A DNA stretch of 64,000 nucleotides from Deltaproteobacteria bacterium (GCA_027493875.1 JAOSJX010000006.1:45248-109247), one strand, 5' to 3'; positions 35,725 to 64,000 are shown, counted from the stretch's first letter. Notes: a model not told the origin generated them from the letters alone. Numbers and translations are program-made.

Positions 35725-35882
35725 CCGTTCCCTCCTATCGGGTTGTGAACGATGCCCCTGCTCCATCGCCATGACATTGGTACGGTCCGTGATTGTAACA
35801 TATCGGCGCATTCTTGAAAGACAAAAAAAGAAAGGCCCCGGGGCGAACCCCGGGGCCTCTTTTTGTCGTATTCGAGCGATTA

Positions 35883-51858: not shown

Positions 51859-53179
51859 TCAGGTGAGGTACGTTACGAGCCGGCGAACATGGCTTCGACA
51901 GAAGTCCTTGGCGTCGAAGGCGCGCAGATCGTCGATTTTCTCGCCGATGCCGATAAACCGGATGGGGACCTTCAGTTCATTGCTGATCCCCACGATGCAT
52001 CCGCCTTTCGCCGTGCCGTCGAGCTTCGTCATGATGATGCCCGAAAGGTCGATCGCTTCGTTGAAGGTCTTGGCTTGCTGAATCGCGTTCTGGCCCGTCG
52101 TCGCGTCGAGCACGAGCACGGTCTCGTGCGGCGCCTCTGGAACGATCTTCGCCATCACACGTTTCGTCTTCTTGAGCTCTTCCATCAGGTTCGACTTGGT
52201 GTGCAGCCGTCCCGCCGTATCCACGAGCACGACGTCCGCGCCGCGCGATTTCGCCGCCTGCACCGCGTCGTAGGCCACGGCGGACGGATCGGCCCCGGCG
52301 TCCTGTTTGATGATCTCGCAGCCGACGCGCCCGGCCCACACCTCGAGCTGCTCGATGGCGGCGGCGCGGAATGTATCGCCCGCGGCGAGCAGAACTTTTT
52401 TTTCCGTCCGCGGCGTACTTCGCGGCGATCTTGCCGATCGTCGTCGTCTTGCCGACGCCGTTAACACCGACGACCATAATGACGAACGGCTTGGCGCCGC
52501 TGACTTCCAGCGGGATCGCCTCGGTCTGCAGGATGCCGCCGATGAGTTCCTTGAGCACGTCGCGCAGACCGGCCGGGTCCTCGATGCCGCGCTCCGATAC
52601 GATCTCTCGCGCCTGGTCGAGAAGATCGGTCGCCGTTTGCACGCCGATGTCCGCGGTGATGAGCGCCTCTTCGAGATCGTCGTAGAGATCCTGATCGATC
52701 GCCGAACGGCCGGTGAGAATTTGATCGATCTTCCCGACGAGTCCCGCGCTCGTTTTGGCAAGCCCCGCCTTGAGCCGTCCAAACCAGGAAACCTTGGGTT
52801 CCGGCGCGGGAGCCGGCTCGGGTTCCGGCTCGGGTTCGGGCTCAGGGGCGGCTTCGGGTTCCTCCGCCTCGGCTTCGAGCATCGCCTCGATATCGGCGTC
52901 CGCGAGCGCTTCACCGTCTTCTTCAGGTTCTTCTTCGGACTCCGCGGTGACCGCCTCTTCACGCGCGGAGAGCTTTTCCACAAGCTCCCGGGTTTTACGC
53001 CGGCGCGACAGAAGCAACAACATCCACAACAAGAGCAACAGCGCCACCAACAAAAGCGGCACGCTCTTCGTCGCCAATGGCAAGCCGGTGCTTTCCAGCA
53101 ACAAATTGAGATTGTGGTGAGCCGGACCCCAGTATTTGTCCAAAAGCTCGCCGATCACCGGAATGTCGGACCAAAACAT
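51859..53179 (-). CDS. ftsY: signal recognition particle receptor FtsY; apparent frameshift at t8/a8 run ~52394-52402
   Basis: Membrane-anchored acidic A domain, then the NG domain [23 protein letters not shown] (G1) continuing as [17 protein letters not shown]…LDTAGRLH…[13 protein letters not shown]. Confidence 0.85.
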
Positions 53180-55812: not shown

Positions 55813-57557
55813 TTAAACGAACAGCGTCCACTCCAGCGCGACGAGGCCGGCGGCGAGGAAGTGCGTGTCGACGAGGAAGTCCCGGCGCACGACGCTGACG
55901 CGGTCGAACGAAAATCCCCGATAGTGGAAGAAGATCGTTTCCGCGAGGACGACAAGGCCGAGAATCCACGCGAAAGGCGGAAAAATGCCGACGCCCGCGA
56001 CGGCGATGAGCAGCACGCCGAGCGCGGCGCACCCGTAGAGCAACGCCTGCTTGGTTTTTTTCTCGCCGAACACCAGCGGGATCGTTTCGCGGCCGACGAG
56101 CCGGTCGGCGTTCATATCCGTCAGGTCCACGACGACCGAGCGAATGCCGGTGACGAGGAAGAGGAAGAAGAACGTGAGCAGCGTCTGGCCGAGGCCCGCG
56201 TTTTCCGTCAGGAAGAACAGCGGGAACACGGAGACGACCGCCCACGCGGAGGCGACGAAGAAGTTTTTACTGGCCGCGATGTCCTTGAGGCGGCGGAACC
56301 CGACGTATTTCGTCACGCGTTTCGGCACGATCTTCACCGAATAGAGAATGCCGAGAATGCTGGCGGCGAGCACGAGCAGGAAGGGCAGCACACCCATATA
56401 GAAGCCGACGGCCACCGCGGCGAGGGCGCTGCCCACGCCGAGCGCCTGCATGAAGCGCTTGTTCTTTTCGTAAAAACGCGCGCGGACCGGATCGTCGCGG
56501 AAGCGGTCGAGATTGCGTTCGGTGAATCGGTTGAGGACGTGCATGGCGAGCACGTAACAAAAGACCAGCGCGAAGGAGGAGAGGCGGAACGGAATGCCCT
56601 GCAGCAGCGCGGCGACGTAACAGAGCACGCCCGCGGCGATGCTGGTGTACGCGCTCGTGACGACGAGCGCTTCGAGCACGCGCTTGGCCTTGGAGAGCAC
56701 GGGCGCGCGGCTTTGGTCTTCCAGCGTTTTCAGATACGCCATGACGCGGTCGATGCTCCACGAGGGCGTGCTCGCGCCCGCGGTGACGCCGACCCGGCTG
56801 TACGGCGTGAAATCCACGCCCGCGAGTTCGTCTTCGGTTTCGATGTGCCACGTGGGGAGGCGGAATTCCTCGGAGGCGATTTGCGCGAGGCGCGTCGTGT
56901 TCCCGAGTTCTTGCCGCCGATGACGACCATGGCGTCGACCGAGCGGCAGAGTTCGAGAATTTCGTCCTGGCGTTCGACGGTGGCGTCGCACATGGTGTCC
57001 TTGACGACGACGCTCGGGAAGCGCTCGCGCGCCTCCTTCATGATGCGTTGCCACTCGGCGACGTTGGTGGTGGTCTGCGTGATGAGCAGGACGTTGCGGT
57101 CCGCGGGGATTTTGTCGAGCTCGTGCGCGCCTTCGATGATGCGCACGTTGTCGGCGCCGGCGAAACCGATGAGGCCGATGACCTCGGCGTGGCGCGGCTC
57201 GCCGTAAATCACCACGAAATGCCCTTTTTTGACGTAGGTCTGCACCACCTTCTGCGACCGCTTCACGATCGGGCAGGTGTTGTCGAGGATGGCGTCGGAC
57301 CGGCGTTCGAGTTCGGCGTAATCCGCGGGGGAGACGCCGTGCGACCGGATGATCGCCAGACCGCCGTCGATCTCTTGGATGGCGCCCGCGTTGTGGATTT
57401 CACGATGGCGCAGCAGATCGACGACCTGCGGATTGTGCACCAGCGGGCCGAGGGTCGTGACTTTTTGGTATTGGGAGGCCTCGACTTCGAGGGTTTTGTT
57501 GAGCGCCAGACGCACGCCCCAGCAAAACCCCGCCGTTTTGGCCAGAATAAATTCCAT
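55813..57557 (-). CDS. ispH: 4-hydroxy-3-methylbut-2-enyl diphosphate reductase (IspH/LytB) fused in-frame to a C-terminal UbiA-superfamily membrane prenyltransferase domain; apparent frameshift near 56900
   Basis: IspH MEFILAKTAGFCWGV…PLVHNPQVV…VVIGGKNS continues, after a g-run, as NTTRLAQIASE…IDRVMAYLKTLEDQ. It then runs without a stop into a ~290-aa polytopic domain with UbiA-like Asp-rich motifs (NRFTERNLDRFRDD, VVDLTDMNADRL). Confidence 0.65.
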
Positions 57558-57616
57558 GCTCGCTACCGCTCCATAATACGGGGCGAAAAAAGTCCGTCCT
57601 GGCTTTTTCGCCACCG

Positions 57617-57646
57617 GAAAACAAAAAGCGCGGTTTTTGTTTTCCT
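57617..57646. promoter_or_regulatory. perfect 12-bp-arm palindrome ggaaaacaaaaa-gcgcgg-tttttgttttcc between the lgt 3' end and the ispH-ubiA start
   Basis: 12/12 inverted repeat with a 6-nt spacer; AT-rich in a GC-rich genome. Confidence 0.4.
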
Positions 57647-57715
57647 CCATCCGCCTTCGCTCGGGAGGCATCGGCGGATGCCGCGTCATCCATGACGCGC
57701 GGGGCGTCTCAAAAG

Positions 57716-58537
57716 CTAAACGCGGGCCGCAAAAACCCCTGCGGGCTTCAACTTCCCCGCCGATACTAGCTTTTTTCGGCTTCCGGCGTATATGAAGCAG
57801 ATCACACAGCCGGCGAGCATGGCAATGCTTATCCACTGGCTGGTGGACAGGAAGCCGAAACGGCCGCGGGAGGCGTCACCACGCATGAATTCCAGCAAAA
57901 AGCGCCCGACGCCGTAAATACCTAATTGCAGGCCGAAAATTTCGCCATAGGCCCGTTCTTTCTTCTTGGCGCGGTAGGCCATCAGAATGCCGAACATCAG
58001 GAGCCCCAAAAGAGCCTCGTAAAGCTGCGACGGGTGGAGGGCCAAGCCGCCGTAGGCCTTGTCCGGCCGCGAACCCTCGGGAAAGATGACCCCCCAGGGC
58101 AGGTCGGTGGGCGCGCCGTAGCAGCAGCCCGCCATGAAGCAGGCGCCCGAACGGTGAATGGCGAGCCCCAGGCCGAAGTAGGTGCTGGCGATATCCTGAA
58201 ACGGCAGATAGGGGTGGCGCTTGAATTTGGTGTAACCGACCGCGCCGGCGACCGCGCCGATGAAGCCGCCGTAGAGCACGATGCCGCGCTTGCGATTGAA
58301 GATGCGGACGGGATCGGCCCAGTACCAGTCGAAATTGACGATCACGTCGAGCAGGCGCGAGCCGACGATGACGCCGACCAGCGACGCGATGAGCGCGCCC
58401 ATCATCAACTCTTCGTTGAAGCCTTCTTTCTTTGCGCGCCGCACGCACAGGATCACGCCCATCAGGATCGTGAGCGGATACACCACCTGATAAAAATGGA
58501 TGTCCTTGCCGGCGACGGTCACTAGAATGGGATGCAA
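57716..58537 (-). CDS. lgt: prolipoprotein diacylglyceryl transferase
   Basis: Lgt signature LHPSQLYEALLGL, conserved YGxxxxxG and H…S residues; TTG start with a GGGAGGG SD. Confidence 0.85.
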   Translation of the reverse strand: MHPILVTVAGKDIHFYQVVYPLTILMGVILCVRRAKKEGFNEELMMGALIASLVGVIVGSRLLDVIVNFDWYWADPVRIFNRKRGIVLYGGFIGAVAGAVGYTKFKRHPYLPFQDIASTYFGLGLAIHRSGACFMAGCCYGAPTDLPWGVIFPEGSRPDKAYGGLALHPSQLYEALLGLLMFGILMAYRAKKKERAYGEIFGLQLGIYGVGRFLLEFMRGDASRGRFGFLSTSQWISIAMLAGCVICFIYAGSRKKLVSAGKLKPAGVFAARV

Positions 58538-58805: not shown

Positions 58806-59396
58806 TCACGCGCCGGACGCCTCACCTTCGACGAGCACGCCGATCCGCACGTACCACATCACGTGATAGGAATCGGCGTCCGTGCATTCGACGCAGTAGT
58901 TGAACTCCTCGTCGCGATGCGCGAGGTAGTAGTTGATCAACTCCTCCGCGTTCGCGTCGACCTCGATCGGCGTCCAGCTCATCGAACCCTTCACCACGTC
59001 CTGCTCGACGATGAGCGCGCTGCCGGCGTCGCCCCAGAGCGTCATGGCGCAGGAAACCGATCCGACCTCGACCGGTTCCCACATCGCGTCGGCGTATTTG
59101 GCTTCGACGTATTCGAGCGTGATCGAATCGATGTCCGCGCCTTCGGTATCCACGTCATTGCGCTCCAATTCTTCGTTGACCGACGTAATGCCGCAATCCA
59201 TGTCCAGCGGCTGGAGCTTGGCGGCGGTCTGCTCCGCCTCGATCGGTTCGAGCTCGAGCTCGGCGTCTTTTTCAAAACTCGTATCCACGTTCTTCATCGC
59301 TTCGTCCTTGGCTTCGTCCTCCAGATCACAGGAAGCGGCCACGAATCCGAAGCAAAGCACCACGCCAATCCAGAGAAACACGTATCTCGCCTTCAT
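58806..59396 (-). CDS. hypothetical acidic lipoprotein
   Basis: MKARYVFLWIGVVLCFGFVAASC lipobox with GGAGG 7 nt upstream; divergent from the RiPP precursor gene. Confidence 0.5.
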   Translation of the reverse strand: MKARYVFLWIGVVLCFGFVAASCDLEDEAKDEAMKNVDTSFEKDAELELEPIEAEQTAAKLQPLDMDCGITSVNEELERNDVDTEGADIDSITLEYVEAKYADAMWEPVEVGSVSCAMTLWGDAGSALIVEQDVVKGSMSWTPIEVDANAEELINYYLAHRDEEFNYCVECTDADSYHVMWYVRIGVLVEGEASGA

Positions 59397-59448
59397 CGGA
59401 ACCTCCATTTTGGAAAACGTCCCAGGGTAGGTTTCGACGCGAAGGTTC

Positions 59449-59475
59449 GTCAACCGCAAGTATTTGTTATTTTAG
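59449..59475. promoter_or_regulatory. conserved 26-nt motif, copy 2, in the divergent region between the lipoprotein gene and the RiPP precursor gene
   Basis: Matches 58755-58780 at 24 of 26 positions. Confidence 0.35.
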
Positions 59476-59666
59476 AGGTATTTCCGATATCTCTCCTTTT
59501 TGGGTTGAAGACGCGCGCGAGATGTCCGCGCGCATGATTTTCATCATAACGCCATACGGTTCGATGCGATTTGATGCGGGCTTCACGTTCAGGAGGAAAC
59601 ACGGAAGACGGCCCTGCCGTATTCCAAAGCGTTACTCACGCATTCATTACGCAAGGAGCACCGATC

Positions 59667-60035
59667 ATGAAGAAGAGCAGCCTGATTCTCGGACTTGGTT
59701 CCGCGGCCTTCCTTTTGGGAACGCCGATCGCGCACGCGGCGACGGACGCGGACGCGCTCGTGAAGGACGCGGTGAAATCGTCCAAATCGTCCGATGCGTC
59801 CGGCGTCATGCTGGCGTTTCTGTCGGATGATGACACGGGCGGCGAAGGAAGCTGCGGCGGCGAGGGCAAATGCGGCGAAGGGAGCTGCGGCGGCGACAAA
59901 GACAAGGACAAAGACAAGGACAAGGACAAGGACAAGGATAAGGATAAGGACAAAGACAAGGGTAAGGACGAAGGCGGCGAGAAGGACAAGGGCGAAGGCA
60001 AGTGCGGCGAGGGAAGCTGCGGCGGCAAGAAGTAA
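59667..60035 (+). CDS. secreted HvfA-like RiPP precursor (EGKCG/EGSCG cysteine motifs) with a (DK)9 spacer
   Basis: AAGGAG SD; Sec signal MKKSSLILGLGSAAFLLGTPIAHA; core GGEGSCGGEGKCGEGSCGGDKDKDKDKDKDKDKDKDKDKGKDEGGEKDKGEGKCGEGSCGGKK (5 Cys, all in EGxCG). An MNIO gene lies immediately downstream. Confidence 0.75.
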   Translation: MKKSSLILGLGSAAFLLGTPIAHAATDADALVKDAVKSSKSSDASGVMLAFLSDDDTGGEGSCGGEGKCGEGSCGGDKDKDKDKDKDKDKDKDKDKDKGKDEGGEKDKGEGKCGEGSCGGKK

Positions 60036-60043
60036 TCGCGACG

Positions 60044-60077
60044 CCGGCGCGGGGGCGCGCGCCCCGCGCCGGTTTTT
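60044..60077 (+). terminator. GC-rich hairpin plus T5 (attenuator/terminator) between the precursor and the modifying-enzyme genes
   Basis: ccggcgcgggg / ccccgcgccgg 11-bp stem (60044-60054 / 60062-60072), 7-nt loop, then ttttt 60073-60077. Confidence 0.5.
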
Positions 60078-60107
60078 CCGCGGTGCGGCGACGATCGGGG
60101 AGATTTC

Positions 60108-60959
60108 GTGAATCCATCCGTTAATACAAAAAAAGTGGAAGGTTTCGGCCTTGGATTTCGGTTCGGCCTGGCGGACCAGATGCTCGGCGCGGAACGGTCG
60201 GCGGCGGATTTTGTGGAAATCGCGCCGGAGAATTACATCGGCGTCGGCGGGCGGCGCGCGCGGCTGATCGACGCCGTGCGAGAGCGGTGGCCGATCGTGA
60301 GCCACGGCTTATGCGGCGATTTCGCCGGCGGCATGCCTTTCGACCTCGATTACATGCGCGACCTGCGCACGTTTCTCAAACGCATCGGCGCTCAGTGGTA
60401 CAGCGACCACCTGTGTTTCACGAATTTGCGCGGCGCGGAGATGCACGAGCTCGTCGCGCTGCCGTTTACGGACGAGGCGGTGAAACGGGCGGCGGCGCGT
60501 ATCCGCGACGTTCAGGATTTTCTGGGCATGCCGGTGGCGGTGGAAAACGTCTCGGCTTACGGCGAGATGCCCGGCGCGGAAATGACCGAGGCCGATTTCG
60601 TCGCCGAGGTCGTGCGCGAAAGCGGCGGCCATCTGCTGCTCGACGTGAACAACGTGTACGTCAATTCCGTCAATTTCAAATTCGATCCGCGCGCGTACAT
60701 CGACCGGTTGCCGCTCGACCGCGTGCTCGAAGTGCACGTGGCGGGATACTTTCAGGAAGCGCCGGACCTCCTGCTCGACACGCACGCCATGCCGATTTCC
60801 GATCCCGTTTACGACCTGTTCGCCTACGCGATGGCCAAGCTTCCGCACCGCCCACCGGTCCTGCTCGAACGCGACGGCAATTTCCCGCCGCTCGCGGAAC
60901 TGGAGAGCGAGTTGGCCCGGCTCGACAACATCGCGGAGAAGGTTCATGCCGCCGCTTGA
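60108..60959 (+). CDS. MNIO (multinuclear non-heme iron-dependent oxidative enzyme, DUF692 / MbnB-HvfB-like)
   Basis: N-terminal GLGFRFGLADQML…DFVEIAPENY, the DUF692 hallmark; TIM-barrel-sized (283 aa). Confidence 0.75.
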   Translation: MNPSVNTKKVEGFGLGFRFGLADQMLGAERSAADFVEIAPENYIGVGGRRARLIDAVRERWPIVSHGLCGDFAGGMPFDLDYMRDLRTFLKRIGAQWYSDHLCFTNLRGAEMHELVALPFTDEAVKRAAARIRDVQDFLGMPVAVENVSAYGEMPGAEMTEADFVAEVVRESGGHLLLDVNNVYVNSVNFKFDPRAYIDRLPLDRVLEVHVAGYFQEAPDLLLDTHAMPISDPVYDLFAYAMAKLPHRPPVLLERDGNFPPLAELESELARLDNIAEKVHAAA

Positions 60960-61758
60960 GCAACTCGAAACGAACCTTCGCGGCCTGGTGTTCGACCGCG
61001 AACCCGCGCCCGTTCCCGGTCTGGACGAGCGCGGGCGGCGCGCGTACCGCCGGCAGGTGCGCCGGAGTTTGATGAGCGGCGTGCGCCTGGCGATTCCGAT
61101 CGCGCGGCGCGTGCTCGGCGAGGACGCGGTGAACGACTGGATCGAAAGGTGGCTCGCGGAACGCCCGCCGACGACGCGCGCGTACTGGCGGCTGCCGCTG
61201 CAATTCGCGGAATGGCTGAGCGCGCGCGACGACACCCCCCACCCCGCGTTCGGCGAACTCGTCCACTGGGAAAGTCTGGAAGTGGACGTGCTCAACGCGC
61301 CGGACGACGCGTCCGAGCATCCGGCGCCGGACCCAACGGAGGACCGGCGTCTCGTGCTTCATCCCAGCGCGCGGCTCGGCATCTACAATCATCCGGTCCA
61401 CAAAATGACGCTCGATGACGCCATCTGGCCGGAGCGCGCGCCGGCGCCGATTTTCGTGCTGGCGTGGCGTAAAGACGACGGCCTGCGTTGGATGGAAACG
61501 CACCCGCAAACGGCGCAGCTTCTCGCCCGCGCGGAAGGCGGCGGCACGCTCGGCGCGGGATTCGCTTTTCTCGACACGCTTTACGGTACGGTGGACCGCG
61601 CCGGGGCTTTCCGCGGCGCTGGCGCGCCTTCGCGATCTCGGCGTGATTTCCGGCTTTTCGCCGCGCTGACGCGTTTCTTCCCTCAGGATTTTTCGTTTTC
61701 GTTCCGATCACACGATCGGCGGCGGCTTTACACGTTCCGGGGCCCGTGCTTAGAATAA
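60946..61758 (+). CDS. DUF2063 family MNIO partner protein (MbnC/HvfC-like)
   Basis: Overlaps the MNIO stop by 14 nt. N-terminal region (LRGLVFDREPAPVP…ERGRRAYRRQVRRSLMSGVRLAIPIARRVLGED) fits the DUF2063 N-terminal helical domain. Confidence 0.6.
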   Translation: MPPLEQLETNLRGLVFDREPAPVPGLDERGRRAYRRQVRRSLMSGVRLAIPIARRVLGEDAVNDWIERWLAERPPTTRAYWRLPLQFAEWLSARDDTPHPAFGELVHWESLEVDVLNAPDDASEHPAPDPTEDRRLVLHPSARLGIYNHPVHKMTLDDAIWPERAPAPIFVLAWRKDDGLRWMETHPQTAQLLARAEGGGTLGAGFAFLDTLYGTVDRAGAFRGAGAPSRSRRDFRLFAALTRFFPQDFSFSFRSHDRRRLYTFRGPCLE

Positions 61759-61794
61759 GCGCCTTCCTGGGGGCATCGCTCGTCATCGGTCGCG

Positions 61795-62394
61795 GTGGAG
61801 AATGTGATGGAGCTGGACAAAGCTCTGGATGACATTGAGGTACGGATCAAGGAACTGCGTCATGAGTATGACCTGTTCTTCACGGGCGAGATCCATATCG
61901 AGCCGCAAAAAGCCCGGGACGAGTTGCGCCGCCTGATCCGGCAGGTGAACGCGCAGCACATGGGCAATACGGGCATGAAATTCCGGTTCCACAGCCTTCA
62001 AGCCACGTTCAACTCCTATCAGCGCCTTTGGGACCGCATCCTTTATCAGATCGAAATGGGCACCTACATGCCGCACCGGCTGAAGGCGGACCGCCACGTC
62101 GGCACCTACGACGCGCGTACGGGGACCGTGAAAGAGTCCGACGAGCGCCGCCAGCATCGGCCGGTGGAAGCGCGGCCCGGCAACTCGAACGACATCGGCG
62201 ACGTGAAAAAACTTTATCGAGAGTTTCTCGCGGCGCGCACCGTGACCGCGGAAAAGGGCCGCGTTACCTACGACGCGTTCAAACGCTCGCTCGAAACACA
62301 GCTTCCCGCGCTCAAGAACCGCCTCGGCAGCCGGGTCCGGTTCAAGGTTTCCGTCGAAGGCGGCAAGGCGAAGGTCAAGGGCGTCAGAGCGTAA
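61795..62394 (+). CDS. hypothetical protein co-oriented with the RiPP operon
   Basis: 199-aa ORF 37 nt after the DUF2063 gene; a charged, helical, coding-like composition. Confidence 0.4.
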   Translation: MENVMELDKALDDIEVRIKELRHEYDLFFTGEIHIEPQKARDELRRLIRQVNAQHMGNTGMKFRFHSLQATFNSYQRLWDRILYQIEMGTYMPHRLKADRHVGTYDARTGTVKESDERRQHRPVEARPGNSNDIGDVKKLYREFLAARTVTAEKGRVTYDAFKRSLETQLPALKNRLGSRVRFKVSVEGGKAKVKGVRA

Positions 62395-62436: not shown

Positions 62437-64000
62437 TTATCCGACGGCTCTGAGGTGTGGGCGGGCGTGGACGATGACGAGCGTTTTCACGCCGACGGAT
62501 TCGAAACGCACGATCACCTTCGCGTTTTTTCCCTGACCGTTGAGTCCCATCACGCGGCCGCGGCCGAATTTGTCGTGATCCACCAGCCCGCCGGGGCGAA
62601 GGGGCAGATCCGCGTCGCCTTCCTGGCCTTCGGAGTAATCGTAGTAGGTTTCGCCGCTTTCGCGCGGCGTACGTGGTTGGGACGACCGCGGAAAATCCCG
62701 CGGCTCGAACGAACGCCCGCGCGGCTCGGAAAATATTTCCGGCTCGCGGAACAGCGACGGCGCGAGGGCGAATCCCATCGGCTCGACGAGGTCCTCCGGA
62801 ATTTCGTCGATGAAACGGCTCGGCCGCGCGTAGGTCGGTACGCCGGAATAACTGCGCCGCCGCGCCGCGCACGAGAGCGTCAGATAGCGCCGCGCGCGCG
62901 TGATGCCGACGTAGCACAGGCGGCGTTCCTCTTCGATGGCCTGCGCTCCTTCGGTGATGGAGCGGGAATGCGGCAGAACCATCTCCTCCATCCCGATCAT
63001 AAAGACCGCGGGAAATTCGAGCCCCTTCGCGTTGTGCAGGGTCATGAGGCGGACCGAGTCGGTGTCGTCGGCGACGAGATCCGCGTCCTGCACGAGGCTC
63101 ACCTGTTCCAAATATTCCGCGAGCGTCGATTCCGGGTTTCGTTCGTGGAACTGGCTGACCGCTTCGGCCAATTCGCCCAGGTTTTCCTTGCGGGAGAGCG
63201 CTTCGACGGACCGGTCCTCGTCGAGCATCTTCATATAACCGGACTCGGTGACCACGCGTTCCAAGACGGCCGGCGGATCGAGTTCGGCGGCGGCTTTGGT
63301 GACGCCGTCGATGAGACGGAGAAACCGTCCACCGCCTTCGCCGCCGCGGTGGGCAGATCGCCGCGGCGCACGAGCTCGCGCGCGGCGTCCAGAAACGGCG
63401 CACCGGACGTGGCGGCTTCGGCGTCGATCTTGTCGATGGTGGTCTTCCCGATCTTGCGCGCGGGGACGTTGATGATGCGCCGCGCCGCCACGCCGTCCGT
63501 CGCGTTGACCGCGAGCCGGAGGTAGGCCAGCACGTCCTTGACCTCCTTGCGGTCGTAGAACCGCGTGCCGCCGACGACCACGTACGGCGTGTTCTGGCGC
63601 AGCAACTCCTCTTCGATCACGCGGGAGAAGGCGTTGATGCGGTAGAACACGGCGACGTCGCGTCCGCCGAGCCCGTCCTTGATGGACAGTTCGCGGATTT
63701 CGCGCGCGACGAAGCGCGCTTCGTCGTACTCGTCGTCGGCGCGAAACAGATGCACGCGCCGGCCGGGGCCGTTTTCCGTGGACAATTTTTTCGCCACGCG
63801 CCCGGTGTTGTTTTTGATGACGGCGTCGGCGACGGCGAGAATGTTGGCGGTGGACCGGTAGTTCCGGCCGAGCACGACGCGCGCCGCGTCGGGAAACGCT
63901 TTTGAAATCCGAGAATATTTTCGATGCGCGCGCCGCGCCAGCGGTAGATGCTCTGATCGTCGTCGCCGACGACGCACAGGTTGCGGTGCGGCCCGAGCAT
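62437..64000 (-). CDS. UvrD/PcrA/Rep-family ATP-dependent DNA helicase (3' portion; continues beyond the window); at least two apparent frameshifts
   Basis: Motif [17 protein letters not shown] (ORF 63617..64000), NYRSTANIL…[22 protein letters not shown] (ORF 63231..63977), and C-terminal [13 protein letters not shown]…YVGITRAR (ORF 62437..63264). The junctions are at g3 ~63893 and a3 ~63322. Confidence 0.8.

What the first reader, a model, noticed from the sequence alone, without database searches (positions are those of the whole stretch)
59667..62394. HvfA-like Cys-motif RiPP precursor with MNIO (DUF692) and DUF2063 partner: putative oxazolone/thioamide metallophore cluster with an unusual (DK)9 precursor
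A small Sec-secreted protein whose only cysteines sit in five EG(S/K)CG motifs is followed by a GC hairpin plus T5, then by translationally overlapping DUF692 (MNIO) and DUF2063 genes, and then by a small unknown ORF. This is the gene order of the recently characterised HvfABC / MbnBC-type systems. In those systems an MNIO-partner pair converts Cys in EGKCG motifs into oxazolone-thioamide copper-binding groups. This precursor differs from Haemophilus HvfA: it has an 18-residue pure Asp-Lys alternation between two motif blocks and a KK C-terminus. That suggests a variant product, or a spacer/metal-bridging element.
Basis: partly seen in the sequence, partly recalled or inferred. Interest (0 to 1): 0.8.

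Follow-up and report, generated by a model that had tools for sequence, protein, structure and literature searches.

The report
Copper-binding thiooxazole peptide gene cluster
This is a three-gene cluster for a secreted, cysteine-modified, probably copper-binding peptide of a class already known from more than 20,000 bacterial clusters; it is ordinary apart from an unusually long Asp-Lys spacer in the peptide.

Summary
A 122-aa Sec-signal peptide (59667..60035) has its only five cysteines in EG(S/K)CG motifs. A strong GC hairpin plus T5 follows, then an MNIO gene (PF05114, E 1.5e-86) that overlaps a DUF2063/HvfC-type partner gene.

Corrections:
- The Asp-Lys run is (DK)11, 22 residues, not (DK)9.
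- The partner ORF carries a +1 frameshift in a GGGG run (61603..61606). Its real end is 61669, not 61758. This is most likely an assembly error, because ftsY, ispH and uvrD nearby are also split.
- The fourth ORF (61795..62394) is unrelated. It has an MXAN_5187 C-terminal domain and a promoter-like site of its own, and it is absent from 57 related loci.
- The chemistry is out of date. HvfA-type modifications were reassigned in 2025-26 from oxazolone/thioamide to 5-thiooxazole.

EGSCG motifs, GGDKDK spacers and a KK terminus are all common in this family (about 2,100 cluster representatives). Only the length of the DK tract stands out.

The MNIO is 39-42% identical to FonB, HvfB and NgoB. It belongs to a metagenomic clade labelled Deltaproteobacteria or Myxococcota, whose clusters lack DoxX and which differs at two published substrate-selectivity sites.

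Verdict: a new member of a known kind (the oxazolin/captophorin class). Low to moderate interest.

The parts
59653..59658 (+). Shine-Dalgarno AAGGAG, 8 nt upstream of the precursor ATG
   Evidence: Read directly from the sequence.
59667..60035 (+). Precursor peptide gene (122 aa, HvfA/oxazolin-like, 'Lys-Cys' captophorin type). The exact sequence, from either candidate start codon, is absent from the protein collection searched, so it may be unannotated in the public record.
   Evidence: Translation. phmmer hits to EGKCG/EGSCG precursors. Similar precursors lie upstream of the closest MNIO homologues. NF050137 scores 14.1 bits (cutoff 19.5), while the L001 and L003 precursors score 29.4 and 32.5.
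59667..59738 (+). Predicted Sec/SPase I signal peptide (residues 1-24, cleavage after A-H-A). There is no lipobox Cys, unlike the nearest MNIO-linked relatives.
   Evidence: Sequence reading with the -3/-1 rule. Relatives carry L-x-G-C lipoboxes. No Cys codon occurs in any frame here. SignalP was not run.
59844..59894 (+). Motif block 1: EGSCG-G-EGKCG-EGSCG-G (Cys63, 69, 74), predicted sites of 5-thiooxazole formation
   Evidence: Motif statistics in the family. FonBC tolerates A/R/T at the position before Cys, and NgoA carries AEGSCG motifs (PMC13097082).
59895..59960 (+). (DK)11 spacer, 22 residues. It is encoded by a degenerate GACAAG hexanucleotide array, which Tandem Repeats Finder places at 59895..59974 (13.2 copies, 83% matches).
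   Evidence: The longest D/E/K-only run in the top 150 family representatives is 11 aa. Among the phmmer hits that carry Cys motifs, the longest DK run is (DK)4.
59994..60026 (+). Motif block 2: EGKCG-EGSCG-G (Cys113, 118), followed by the C-terminal KK
   Evidence: The same terminal GEGKCGEGSCGG + 2 residues is seen in P0128, P0134, P0140 and P0148.
60044..60077 (+). Intrinsic-terminator-like hairpin (11-12 bp perfect GC stem, 7-nt loop) plus T5, between the precursor and MNIO genes. Proposed attenuator or mRNA 3'-stabiliser.
   Evidence: Strong stem-loops occupy the same position in L006, L008, L009, L036, L011 and L026.
60108..60959 (+). MNIO (DUF692) peptide-modifying enzyme, 283 aa, GTG start with GGGGAG 5 nt upstream
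   Evidence: PF05114 at 1.5e-86. NF003818 HvfB scores 289 bits (cutoff 360) and NF050167 BufB 257 bits (cutoff 310). 3BWW matches at 2e-59. The iron-ligand motifs and the catalytic Asp256 are conserved.
60946..61669 (+). DUF2063/HvfC-type partner protein (PME type 1). It overlaps the MNIO stop by 14 nt. It reads as 240 aa once one G is removed from the GGGG at 61603..61606. As assembled, the ORF runs in the wrong frame to 61758.
   Evidence: PF09836 at 29.9 bits (gathering score 27.2), PF22106 at 22.1 bits (gathering score 27), NF050145 at 81 bits (cutoff 142). Frameshift repair and alignment. The clade profile hits 3DEE at 9e-8. NCBI lists the 270-aa frameshifted form as hypothetical protein MCZ7583424.1.

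Best explanation
The region is a three-gene RiPP operon (precursor, MNIO, DUF2063 partner) of the oxazolin/'captophorin' class.

Proposed mechanism, inferred by homology:
1. The 122-aa precursor is translated in the cytoplasm.
2. The MNIO-partner heterodimer binds it. Using a mixed-valent di-iron centre and O2, it carries out a four-electron oxidation of each of the five Cys in the EG(S/K)CG motifs, giving a 5-thiooxazole (-4 Da each, -20 Da in total, absorbance near 305 nm).
3. The modified peptide is exported by Sec and cut by signal peptidase I after A-H-A. This leaves a soluble, disordered peptide of about 98 aa in the periplasm.
4. The thiooxazole N/S donors of that peptide chelate copper and buffer copper stress.

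The hairpin plus T5 after the precursor gene probably attenuates read-through or stabilises the short transcript, so that the precursor outnumbers the enzymes. The (DK)11 tract is most simply a slippage-expanded version of the family's usual GGDKDK linker, acting as a highly hydrated zwitterionic spacer between a three-site block and a two-site block.

Shown here: gene identities, motif content, conservation of the catalytic residues, conserved synteny and the recurrence of the hairpin. Inferred: the chemistry, copper binding, the role of the hairpin and the role of the DK tract.
For: - MNIO: PF05114 at 1.5e-86, with HvfB and BufB as the best NCBIfam models. 3BWW matches at 2e-59. The SDH, EN, D..NN, H.AG, DTH and ERD motifs align with MbnB, FonB, HvfB and NgoB, and the FonB-D249 catalytic base is kept as D256.
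- Partner: DUF2063 above the gathering score. The clade profile hits NGO1945 (3DEE) at 9e-8.
- Precursor: 40-51% identical in MAFFT alignment A2 to EGKCG/EGSCG precursors. A profile of these finds 2,129 representatives.
- Synteny: precursors with the same motifs sit directly upstream of the closest MNIO homologues, 55-67% identical. Two of them pass the NCBIfam HvfA-domain cutoff.
- Chemistry: 5-thiooxazole was shown for FonA, HvfA and NgoA. NgoA contains AEGSCG motifs, and FonBC accepts A/R/T before Cys (PMC13097082; 10.64898/2026.06.05.730506; mixed-valent di-iron in 10.64898/2026.07.17.739211).
- Hairpin: rare in the window and recurrent in relatives.
- Precursor structure: predicted disordered, pLDDT 48.
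Against: - Nothing here was tested biochemically.
- The MNIO, partner and precursor all score below the NCBIfam HvfB, HvfC and HvfA cutoffs.
- The MNIO is only 39-42% identical to the characterised enzymes. It differs at the two published selectivity sites: R-F instead of R-R, and D-G instead of D-F.
- The partner gene is frameshifted as assembled.
- No DoxX gene was found in the 64 kb (a single tblastn query).
- No copper-homeostasis gene or regulator was identified next to the cluster.
- The precursor lacks most of the family's PFxMxxLSSGYML leader motif. Only 'SGVMLA' remains.
Confidence: 0.8

Rival explanations
1. One reading: the MNIO-partner pair converts each motif Cys into an oxazolone plus thioamide, as MbnBC does in methanobactin, giving a methanobactin-like copper site.
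For: This was the original assignment for HvfA (PMC11252979). The NCBIfam names NF050137 and NF050188 still say 'oxazolone/thioamide'. The mass change (-4 Da) and the ~302 nm absorbance do not discriminate between the two chemistries.
Against: Two groups reassigned the HvfA modification to 5-thiooxazole by alkylation-assisted HMBC and by comparison with methanobactin (PMC13097082; 10.64898/2026.06.05.730506). All characterised MNIOs with DUF2063 partners make 5-thiooxazoles. The window enzyme matches MbnB only weakly: TIGR04159 at 49 bits against a cutoff of 325, and PDB MbnB at E 4e-8 to 3e-5.
Confidence: 0.05
2. The cluster is decaying. The frameshift in the partner gene is real, the last ~25 residues of the partner are lost, and the precursor is made but left unmodified, acting as a plain Cys-rich peptide or not at all.
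For: The assembled sequence does carry the frameshift. The precursor has lost the lipobox and most of the leader motif seen in relatives. HvfB needs HvfC for activity.
Against: At least four other frameshifts break conserved housekeeping genes (ftsY, ispH, uvrD/pcrA) within the last ~12 kb, which points to assembly indel errors. The shift sits in a G4 homopolymer. The out-of-frame C-terminus is still intact and aligns residue for residue with the homologues. The MNIO and precursor ORFs are intact, with good ribosome-binding sites.
Confidence: 0.1
3. The (DK)11 tract is a selected functional module rather than a neutral linker expansion. It could be a protease-processing region that releases two separate small metallophores, a slippage-prone tract that varies product length, or an anti-aggregation or metal-bridging element.
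For: Its length is an outlier: 22 aa against at most 11 aa of D/E/K-only run in 150 family representatives. The units differ at synonymous sites (GACAAA, GACAAG, GATAAG), so the protein sequence has been kept while the DNA diverged. The literature reports that Cu-loaded EGKCG peptides aggregate, and that it is unknown whether the products are proteolysed (PMC13097082).
Against: GGDKDK-type spacers of (DK)2-4 are common in the family, so this is a difference of degree. The L001 precursor, with the same 3+2 block layout, has an unrelated spacer, DKAEEGADGAEKD. The repeat copy number in an error-prone assembly is uncertain. No experiment bears on it.
Confidence: 0.15

Closest known systems
Oxazolin system HvfABC(X) of nontypeable Haemophilus influenzae (PMC11252979; structure revised in 10.64898/2026.06.05.730506)
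   Same: Gene order is precursor, then MNIO, then DUF2063 partner. The precursor carries a Sec signal peptide and its modified Cys lie in paired EGxCG motifs separated by Lys-rich spacers. All iron-ligand motifs and the catalytic Asp are conserved. The MNIO's best NCBIfam model is HvfB.
   Different: The MNIO is 39% identical. No DoxX (HvfX) gene is present. Three of the five motifs are EGSCG. There are five rather than six sites, no N-terminal disulphide pair, and a (DK)11 spacer. The selectivity residues are R-F and D-G instead of R-R and D-F. The host is a MAG labelled Deltaproteobacteria, not a gammaproteobacterial pathogen.
Gonophorin NgoABC (Neisseria gonorrhoeae) and fontiphorin FonABC (Fontimonas thermophila), 'captophorins' (PMC13097082)
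   Same: NgoA also mixes AEGSCG and EGKCG motifs. It has a charged spacer before a final EGKCGEGKCG pair and ends in SK. FonA carries the GAGYMVA leader motif, echoed by SGVMLA here. The partner-clade profile hits NgoC's crystal structure 3DEE.
   Different: The MNIO is 42% identical to each. The spacers in NgoA and FonA are Lys/Ala-rich, not a DK alternation. ngo encodes DoxX, and this locus does not.
Lipidated EGKCG peptide NedABC (Neisseria dentiae; PMC13056109)
   Same: The closest MNIO homologues of the window gene (L001, L003, L005, L006, L036; 55-67% identical) pair with EGKCG/EGSCG precursors that carry lipoboxes (L-x-G-C), as NedA does.
   Different: The window precursor itself has A-H-A-A where its relatives have the lipobox Cys. 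It is therefore predicted to be a soluble SPase I substrate, not a lipoprotein.
Bufferins Buf1 (DUF2282) and Buf2 with BufBC (PMC11626156, PMC12452194)
   Same: The same MNIO plus DUF2063 enzyme pair, Sec-dependent precursors, 5-thiooxazole chemistry and a copper-buffering role. The window MNIO scores 257 bits on the BufB model.
   Different: The bufferin precursors are folded DUF2282 or 6/12-Cys domains, not EGxCG repeat peptides. The DoxX-linked MNIOs recovered here have EWDTN where the window enzyme has ERDGN.
Methanobactin MbnABC
   Same: An MNIO TIM-barrel enzyme with the same iron-ligand pattern. The product is a copper-binding Cys-derived heterocycle.
   Different: The relationship is distant (TIGR04159 at 49 bits against a cutoff of 325). 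The partner is MbnC rather than DUF2063, the precursor is a leader peptide with no Sec signal, and the product is an oxazolone/thioamide used for copper uptake.

Membership tests
MNIO superfamily (Pfam PF05114, MbnB_TglH_ChrH / DUF692) | Whole-protein score above the Pfam gathering threshold | tested here: met
   290.4 bits against 25, covering profile positions 2-262 of 263.
MNIO superfamily (Pfam PF05114, MbnB_TglH_ChrH / DUF692) | Conserved iron-ligand motifs (H in HGL, H in SDH, E in EN, D and N in DVNN, H in HxAG, D and H in DTH, E in ERD) and the catalytic Asp after ER | tested here: met
   H66, H101, E146, D179, N182, H210, D224, H226, E254 and D256 are invariant in clade alignment A1. 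They align with FonB, HvfB and NgoB, with MbnB chains and with 3BWW. The ligand roles come from the published MbnB and FonB work and from my own knowledge, not from a structure solved here.
HvfB family MNIO (NCBIfam NF003818, equivalog) | Score at or above the curated equivalog cutoff (360 bits) | tested here: not met
   289.4 bits. It is the best-scoring model but falls below the cutoff. Identity to HvfB, FonB and NgoB is 39-42%.
HvfB family MNIO (Lys-Cys group of PMC13097082) | Arg-Arg at FonB positions 15-16 and Phe after the catalytic Asp (FonB F250) | tested here: not met
   The window has R18-F19 and D256-G257. Its clade has R-L/A and D-G/N/S/A/H. In FonB these residues tune selectivity and are not needed for thiooxazole formation.
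BufB bufferin maturase (NCBIfam NF050167, equivalog) | Score at or above the cutoff (310 bits) | tested here: not met
   257.2 bits.
DUF2063 / HvfC partner (PME type 1) | The N-terminal DUF2063 domain (PF09836) above the gathering score | tested here: met
   29.5 bits as assembled and 29.9 bits after frame repair, against 27.2.
DUF2063 / HvfC partner (PME type 1) | The NGO1945-like C-terminal domain (PF22106) and the HvfC equivalog (NF050145, cutoff 142) | tested here: inconclusive
   PF22106 scores 22.1 bits against 27, and NF050145 81 bits against 142. However, a profile of the partner clade hits 3DEE (NGO1945) at E 9e-8 over residues 21-159.
HvfA / Buf_EGKCG / oxazolin precursor (NCBIfam NF050137, KCGExKCG_twice) | Domain score at or above 19.5 bits | tested here: not met
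   14.1 bits, because three of the five motifs are EGSCG. The precursors upstream of the closest MNIO homologues pass: L001 at 29.4 and L003 at 32.5 bits.
HvfA / Buf_EGKCG / oxazolin precursor | A Sec signal peptide plus repeated E-G-x-C-G motifs holding the Cys residues, encoded next to MNIO and DUF2063 genes | tested here: met
   Family profile A2 retrieves 2,129 representatives, in which EGKCG and EGSCG are the two commonest motifs.
Oxazolin/captophorin cluster | An associated DoxX membrane protein gene (frequent but not universal) | tested here: not met
   tblastn with a DoxX protein from L035 finds nothing in the 64-kb window, and the flanking genes are not DoxX. DoxX is also absent next to the closest homologues L001 and L003. 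Only one DoxX query was used.
Oxazolin/captophorin cluster | Cys converted to 5-thiooxazole (-4 Da, ~305 nm, alkylatable thiol) and Cu binding | not testable with these tools
   This needs co-expression, mass spectrometry, UV, NMR and metal titration.

The most novel reading that the evidence does not exclude
The cluster may represent a distinct subclade of thiooxazole metallophore systems. This subclade is so far known only from metagenomes labelled Deltaproteobacteria or Myxococcota, and it lacks DoxX. Its MNIO carries an HGLCGD motif and a small residue in place of FonB Phe250. That enzyme might have different substrate rules, for example a preference for Ser-Cys-Gly-Gly sites. In this reading, the (DK)11 tract of the precursor is a selected zwitterionic spacer, or a slippage-variable or processing module, that keeps the Cu-loaded peptide soluble or splits it into two metallophores.
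Probability: 0.15. Interest if true: 0.45.

Novelty: new member of a known kind. Interest (0 to 1): 0.25.

Why it matters
If expressed, the locus adds a divergent example, from a MAG labelled Deltaproteobacteria, to the thiooxazole copper-peptide class. That class is already counted at more than 20,000 clusters, including 74 in Myxococcota.

Its practical value is modest:
- It offers a natural test of whether Ser-Cys motifs and a non-Phe selectivity pocket still give thiooxazoles.
- It offers a natural long zwitterionic linker for asking why Cu-loaded EGKCG peptides aggregate.

It also shows that the precursor's exact sequence is absent from the protein collection searched, and that the public annotation lists the partner as a frameshifted hypothetical protein.

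Tried and rejected
- Exact look-ups of the precursor and of the window MNIO in the contig index found nothing, so the source contig could not be read beyond the window.
- The genome-contig scan with the MNIO returned a single locus, already in hand.
- phmmer of the repaired partner against the PDB found nothing. Only the clade profile reached 3DEE.
- A search for inverted repeats or an operator in the upstream region 59440..59680 found none, and the sigma-70 scan found no promoter upstream of the precursor.
- The AlphaFold2 model of the precursor gave pLDDT 48 and no secondary structure. It was therefore not used for fold searches, and it does not support the beta-helix fold proposed for mid-size family members.
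- The fourth ORF was rejected as a cluster member. Its only hit above threshold is an MXAN_5187 C-terminal domain, it is absent from the 57 other loci, and a promoter-like site precedes it.
- The antisense ORFs 59589..60305 and 59636..60028 were rejected as low-complexity mirror images of the repeat.
- A hidden lipobox was rejected: there is no Cys codon in any frame of the signal-peptide region.
- The conserved Cys in SDHLC (C103) was rejected as clade-specific, because it is widespread in MNIOs outside the HvfB group.
Full report
**Observation**

The + strand between 59667 and 61669 carries three tightly packed genes.

The first gene runs from an ATG at 59667 (AAGGAG 8 nt upstream) to a stop at 60033-60035 and encodes 122 aa. 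The product begins with a typical Sec signal: MKK, a 15-18-residue hydrophobic core, then A-H-A. It contains exactly five cysteines, all in EG[S/K]CG motifs. Three are in one block (Cys63, 69, 74) and two in a second block (Cys113, 118), followed by a C-terminal KK.

Between the blocks lies an uninterrupted Asp-Lys alternation. It is encoded by a degenerate GACAAG hexanucleotide array at 59895..59974 (13.2 copies).

A perfect 11-12-bp GC stem (60044..60072) followed by TTTTT begins nine nucleotides after the stop codon. Only two such structures exist in the 64-kb window, against 0.33 expected in Markov shuffles. Strong stem-loops occupy the same position, directly after the precursor gene, in six related loci: L006, L008, L009, L036, L011 and L026. 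The hairpin is therefore a conserved positional feature and not a chance match.

**The enzymes**

The ORF 60108..60959 (283 aa) matches Pfam PF05114 (MNIO/DUF692) at 290 bits, E 1.5e-86. Its best NCBIfam models are HvfB (289 bits, cutoff 360) and BufB (257 bits, cutoff 310). MbnB is far behind at 49 bits. The closest solved structure is 3BWW, at 2e-59. All iron-ligand motifs and the Asp equivalent to the FonB-D249 catalytic base are present and invariant in its clade.

The next ORF starts at 60946 and overlaps the MNIO stop by 14 nt. It passes the Pfam DUF2063 gathering score (29.5 against 27.2) and matches the HvfC model at 79-81 bits, below the 142-bit cutoff. A profile of this partner clade hits the NGO1945 crystal structure 3DEE at E 9e-8.

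As assembled, the partner ORF runs to 61758 with a nonsensical Arg/Ser/Phe-rich tail. Another frame encodes PGLSAALARLRDLGVISGFSPR* and ends at 61669. Deleting one G from the GGGG at 61603..61606 yields a 240-aa protein. Its C-terminus (LYGTVDRAGLSAALARLRDLGVISGF) aligns residue for residue with the partners in L001, L006 and L036.

In the last ~12 kb of the window, ftsY, ispH and uvrD/pcrA are also split between overlapping ORFs. The assembly is therefore rich in indel errors, and the partner frameshift is most probably an artefact. NCBI carries the frameshifted 270-aa form as a hypothetical protein (MCZ7583424.1). The precursor's exact sequence, from either candidate start, is not in the protein collection.

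**The fourth ORF**

The ORF 61795..62394 matches only the MXAN_5187 C-terminal domain above threshold (NF041621, 49 bits, cutoff 30). It lies 125 nt beyond the partner's true stop and is preceded by a promoter-like TTTACA-18-TAGAAT. It has no counterpart in any of the 57 other loci fetched. It is not part of the cluster. A tblastn search with one DoxX protein found no DoxX gene in the window.

**Relatives**

The MNIO comes from a MAG labelled Deltaproteobacteria bacterium (contig 145,778 bp). Its closest homologues are at most 67% identical. They are almost all metagenomic, and several are labelled Myxococcota or delta proteobacterium.

In these loci a small gene directly upstream encodes a signal peptide, a low-complexity region and EGKCG/EGSCG motifs. 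For example, L001 has ...GEGKCGEGKCGEGKCGGDKAEEGADGAEKDGEGKCGEGKCGG, the same 3+2 block layout. A DUF2063 gene follows, and no DoxX is present. Two of these precursors pass the NCBIfam HvfA-domain cutoff. The window's own precursor does not (14.1 against 19.5 bits), because three of its motifs carry Ser instead of Lys.

Most of these neighbours have a lipobox Cys. The window precursor has A-H-A-A at that position and no Cys codon in any frame, so it is predicted to be a soluble SPase I substrate.

By precursor sequence, the nearest proteins (40-51% identical in alignment A2) are EGSCG/EGKCG peptides with a PFxMxxLSSGYML leader, of which the window keeps only SGVMLA. Two of them (P0143, P0128) are stand-alone genes behind an ECF sigma factor and a DUF3379 anti-sigma pair.

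**How unusual is the precursor?**

A profile of 15 such precursors retrieves 2,129 cluster representatives at E<=1e-3, and 860 at E<=1e-10, from 1.84 billion. In the top 150:
- EGKCG occurs 754 times and EGSCG 125 times.
- 48 proteins carry EGSCG.
- KK is the single commonest C-terminus.
- 'CGGDKDK' spacers recur.

The longest D/E/K-only run among them is 11 residues, and the longest DK alternation seen in any Cys-motif hit is (DK)4.

The units differ at synonymous positions (GACAAA, GACAAG, GATAAG), so the tract is not a fresh pure microsatellite. In an error-prone assembly its exact copy number is still uncertain. AlphaFold2 gives the precursor pLDDT 48 and no secondary structure, consistent with a disordered peptide.

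**What is known**

HvfABC of Haemophilus influenzae was first reported to install oxazolone/thioamide pairs on AEGKCGEGKCG repeats (PMC11252979). Later work showed the products to be 5-thiooxazoles:
- fontiphorin (FonABC), oxazolin and gonophorin (NgoABC) (PMC13097082);
- a direct comparison of oxazolin with methanobactin (bioRxiv 10.64898/2026.06.05.730506).

The class, which includes the bufferins, is now called captophorins. More than 20,000 clusters have been counted, 74 of them in Myxococcota.

Other relevant findings:
- HvfB activity requires HvfC and a mixed-valent di-iron cluster (10.64898/2026.07.17.739211).
- FonBC tolerates Ala, Arg or Thr at the residue before Cys and needs a small residue after it.
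- NgoA naturally carries AEGSCG motifs.
- Lipidated EGKCG peptides exist (NedA; PMC13056109).
- The survey in PMC12452194 describes about 2,000 Buf_EGKCG/oxazolin proteins, whose clusters combine precursor, MNIO, DUF2063 and DoxX genes 'in various combinations'.

**Where this locus differs**

The MNIO is only 39-42% identical to HvfB, FonB and NgoB. It departs from them at the two published substrate-selectivity sites: R18-F19 instead of Arg-Arg, and D256-G257 instead of Asp-Phe. Its clade also carries a specific HGLCGD motif next to the first His ligand. In FonB, Ala substitutions at these selectivity sites still gave thiooxazole product, so they argue for altered selectivity and not for different chemistry.

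**Mechanism proposed**

These steps are inferred by homology:
1. The precursor is modified in the cytoplasm by the MNIO-partner heterodimer. Five Cys become five 5-thiooxazoles, for -20 Da in total.
2. The peptide is exported by Sec and cleaved by SPase I after A24.
3. A disordered ~98-aa periplasmic peptide chelates copper through thiooxazole N/S donors.

The hairpin/T5 attenuates or stabilises the transcript, so that precursor exceeds enzyme. The (DK)11 tract serves as an expanded zwitterionic linker between a three-site block and a two-site block.

**Verdict**

This is a real, correctly recognised cluster, and a new member of a well-charted class. Its minor peculiarities are the long DK linker, a divergent MNIO clade without DoxX, and the loss of the lipobox relative to its neighbours. 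Interest is low to moderate.

Noticed in passing
window 51859..53179 (-), 55813..57836 (-), 62437..64000 (-): Conserved housekeeping genes are each split between overlapping ORFs. For ftsY, SRP54 positions 1-31 and 27-192 fall in different frames. For ispH, LytB positions 2-210 and 210-267 are split. uvrD/pcrA is in three pieces. This indicates an assembly with roughly one indel error every 2-3 kb.
   Followed up: partly
window 55813..57836 (-): Once the frameshift is allowed for, the C-terminal part of IspH (LytB) continues in frame into a UbiA-family prenyltransferase domain (PF01040, residues 145-383 of ORF 55813..57054). This suggests an IspH-UbiA fusion protein.
   Followed up: no
window 35833..35858: This is the only other perfect hairpin of 9 bp or more followed by a T-run in the 64 kb. 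The 11-bp stem AGGCCCCGGGG/CCCCGGGGCCT has T-runs on both strands, so it is probably a bidirectional terminator.
   Followed up: no
L056 2696..4390 and L057 2700..4396: The proteins most similar to the window precursor (P0143, P0128; EGSCG-rich with GGDKDK spacers) are encoded without any adjacent MNIO. They sit directly downstream of an ECF sigma factor and a DUF3379 anti-sigma gene.
   Followed up: partly
L001 3454..3798, L003 3720..4016, L005, L006, L008, L009, L036 (upstream of the MNIO genes): Precursors paired with the closest MNIO homologues carry lipoprotein signal peptides (L-x-G-C lipobox). The window precursor has Ala at the lipobox Cys position. An lgt gene (57716..58537, -) lies 1.1 kb upstream in the window, probably by coincidence.
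   Followed up: partly
window 58806..59459 (-): A divergently transcribed ORF encodes a predicted acidic lipoprotein (internal start MKARYVF..., lipobox VAASC) with no Pfam or NCBIfam match. It is not conserved next to the homologous clusters.
   Followed up: no
window 61795..62394 (+): A protein carrying an MXAN_5187 C-terminal domain (NF041621, 49 bits), preceded by a promoter-like TTTACA-18-TAGAAT at 61727..61756. The family name points to a myxobacterial affiliation of the MAG.
   Followed up: partly
window 60108..60959; loci L001-L015: The window's MNIO clade has a conserved Cys in HGLCGD, three residues after the first His iron ligand. HvfB, FonB, NgoB and the DoxX-linked EWDTN-type MNIOs lack it. 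Its role is unknown.
   Followed up: partly
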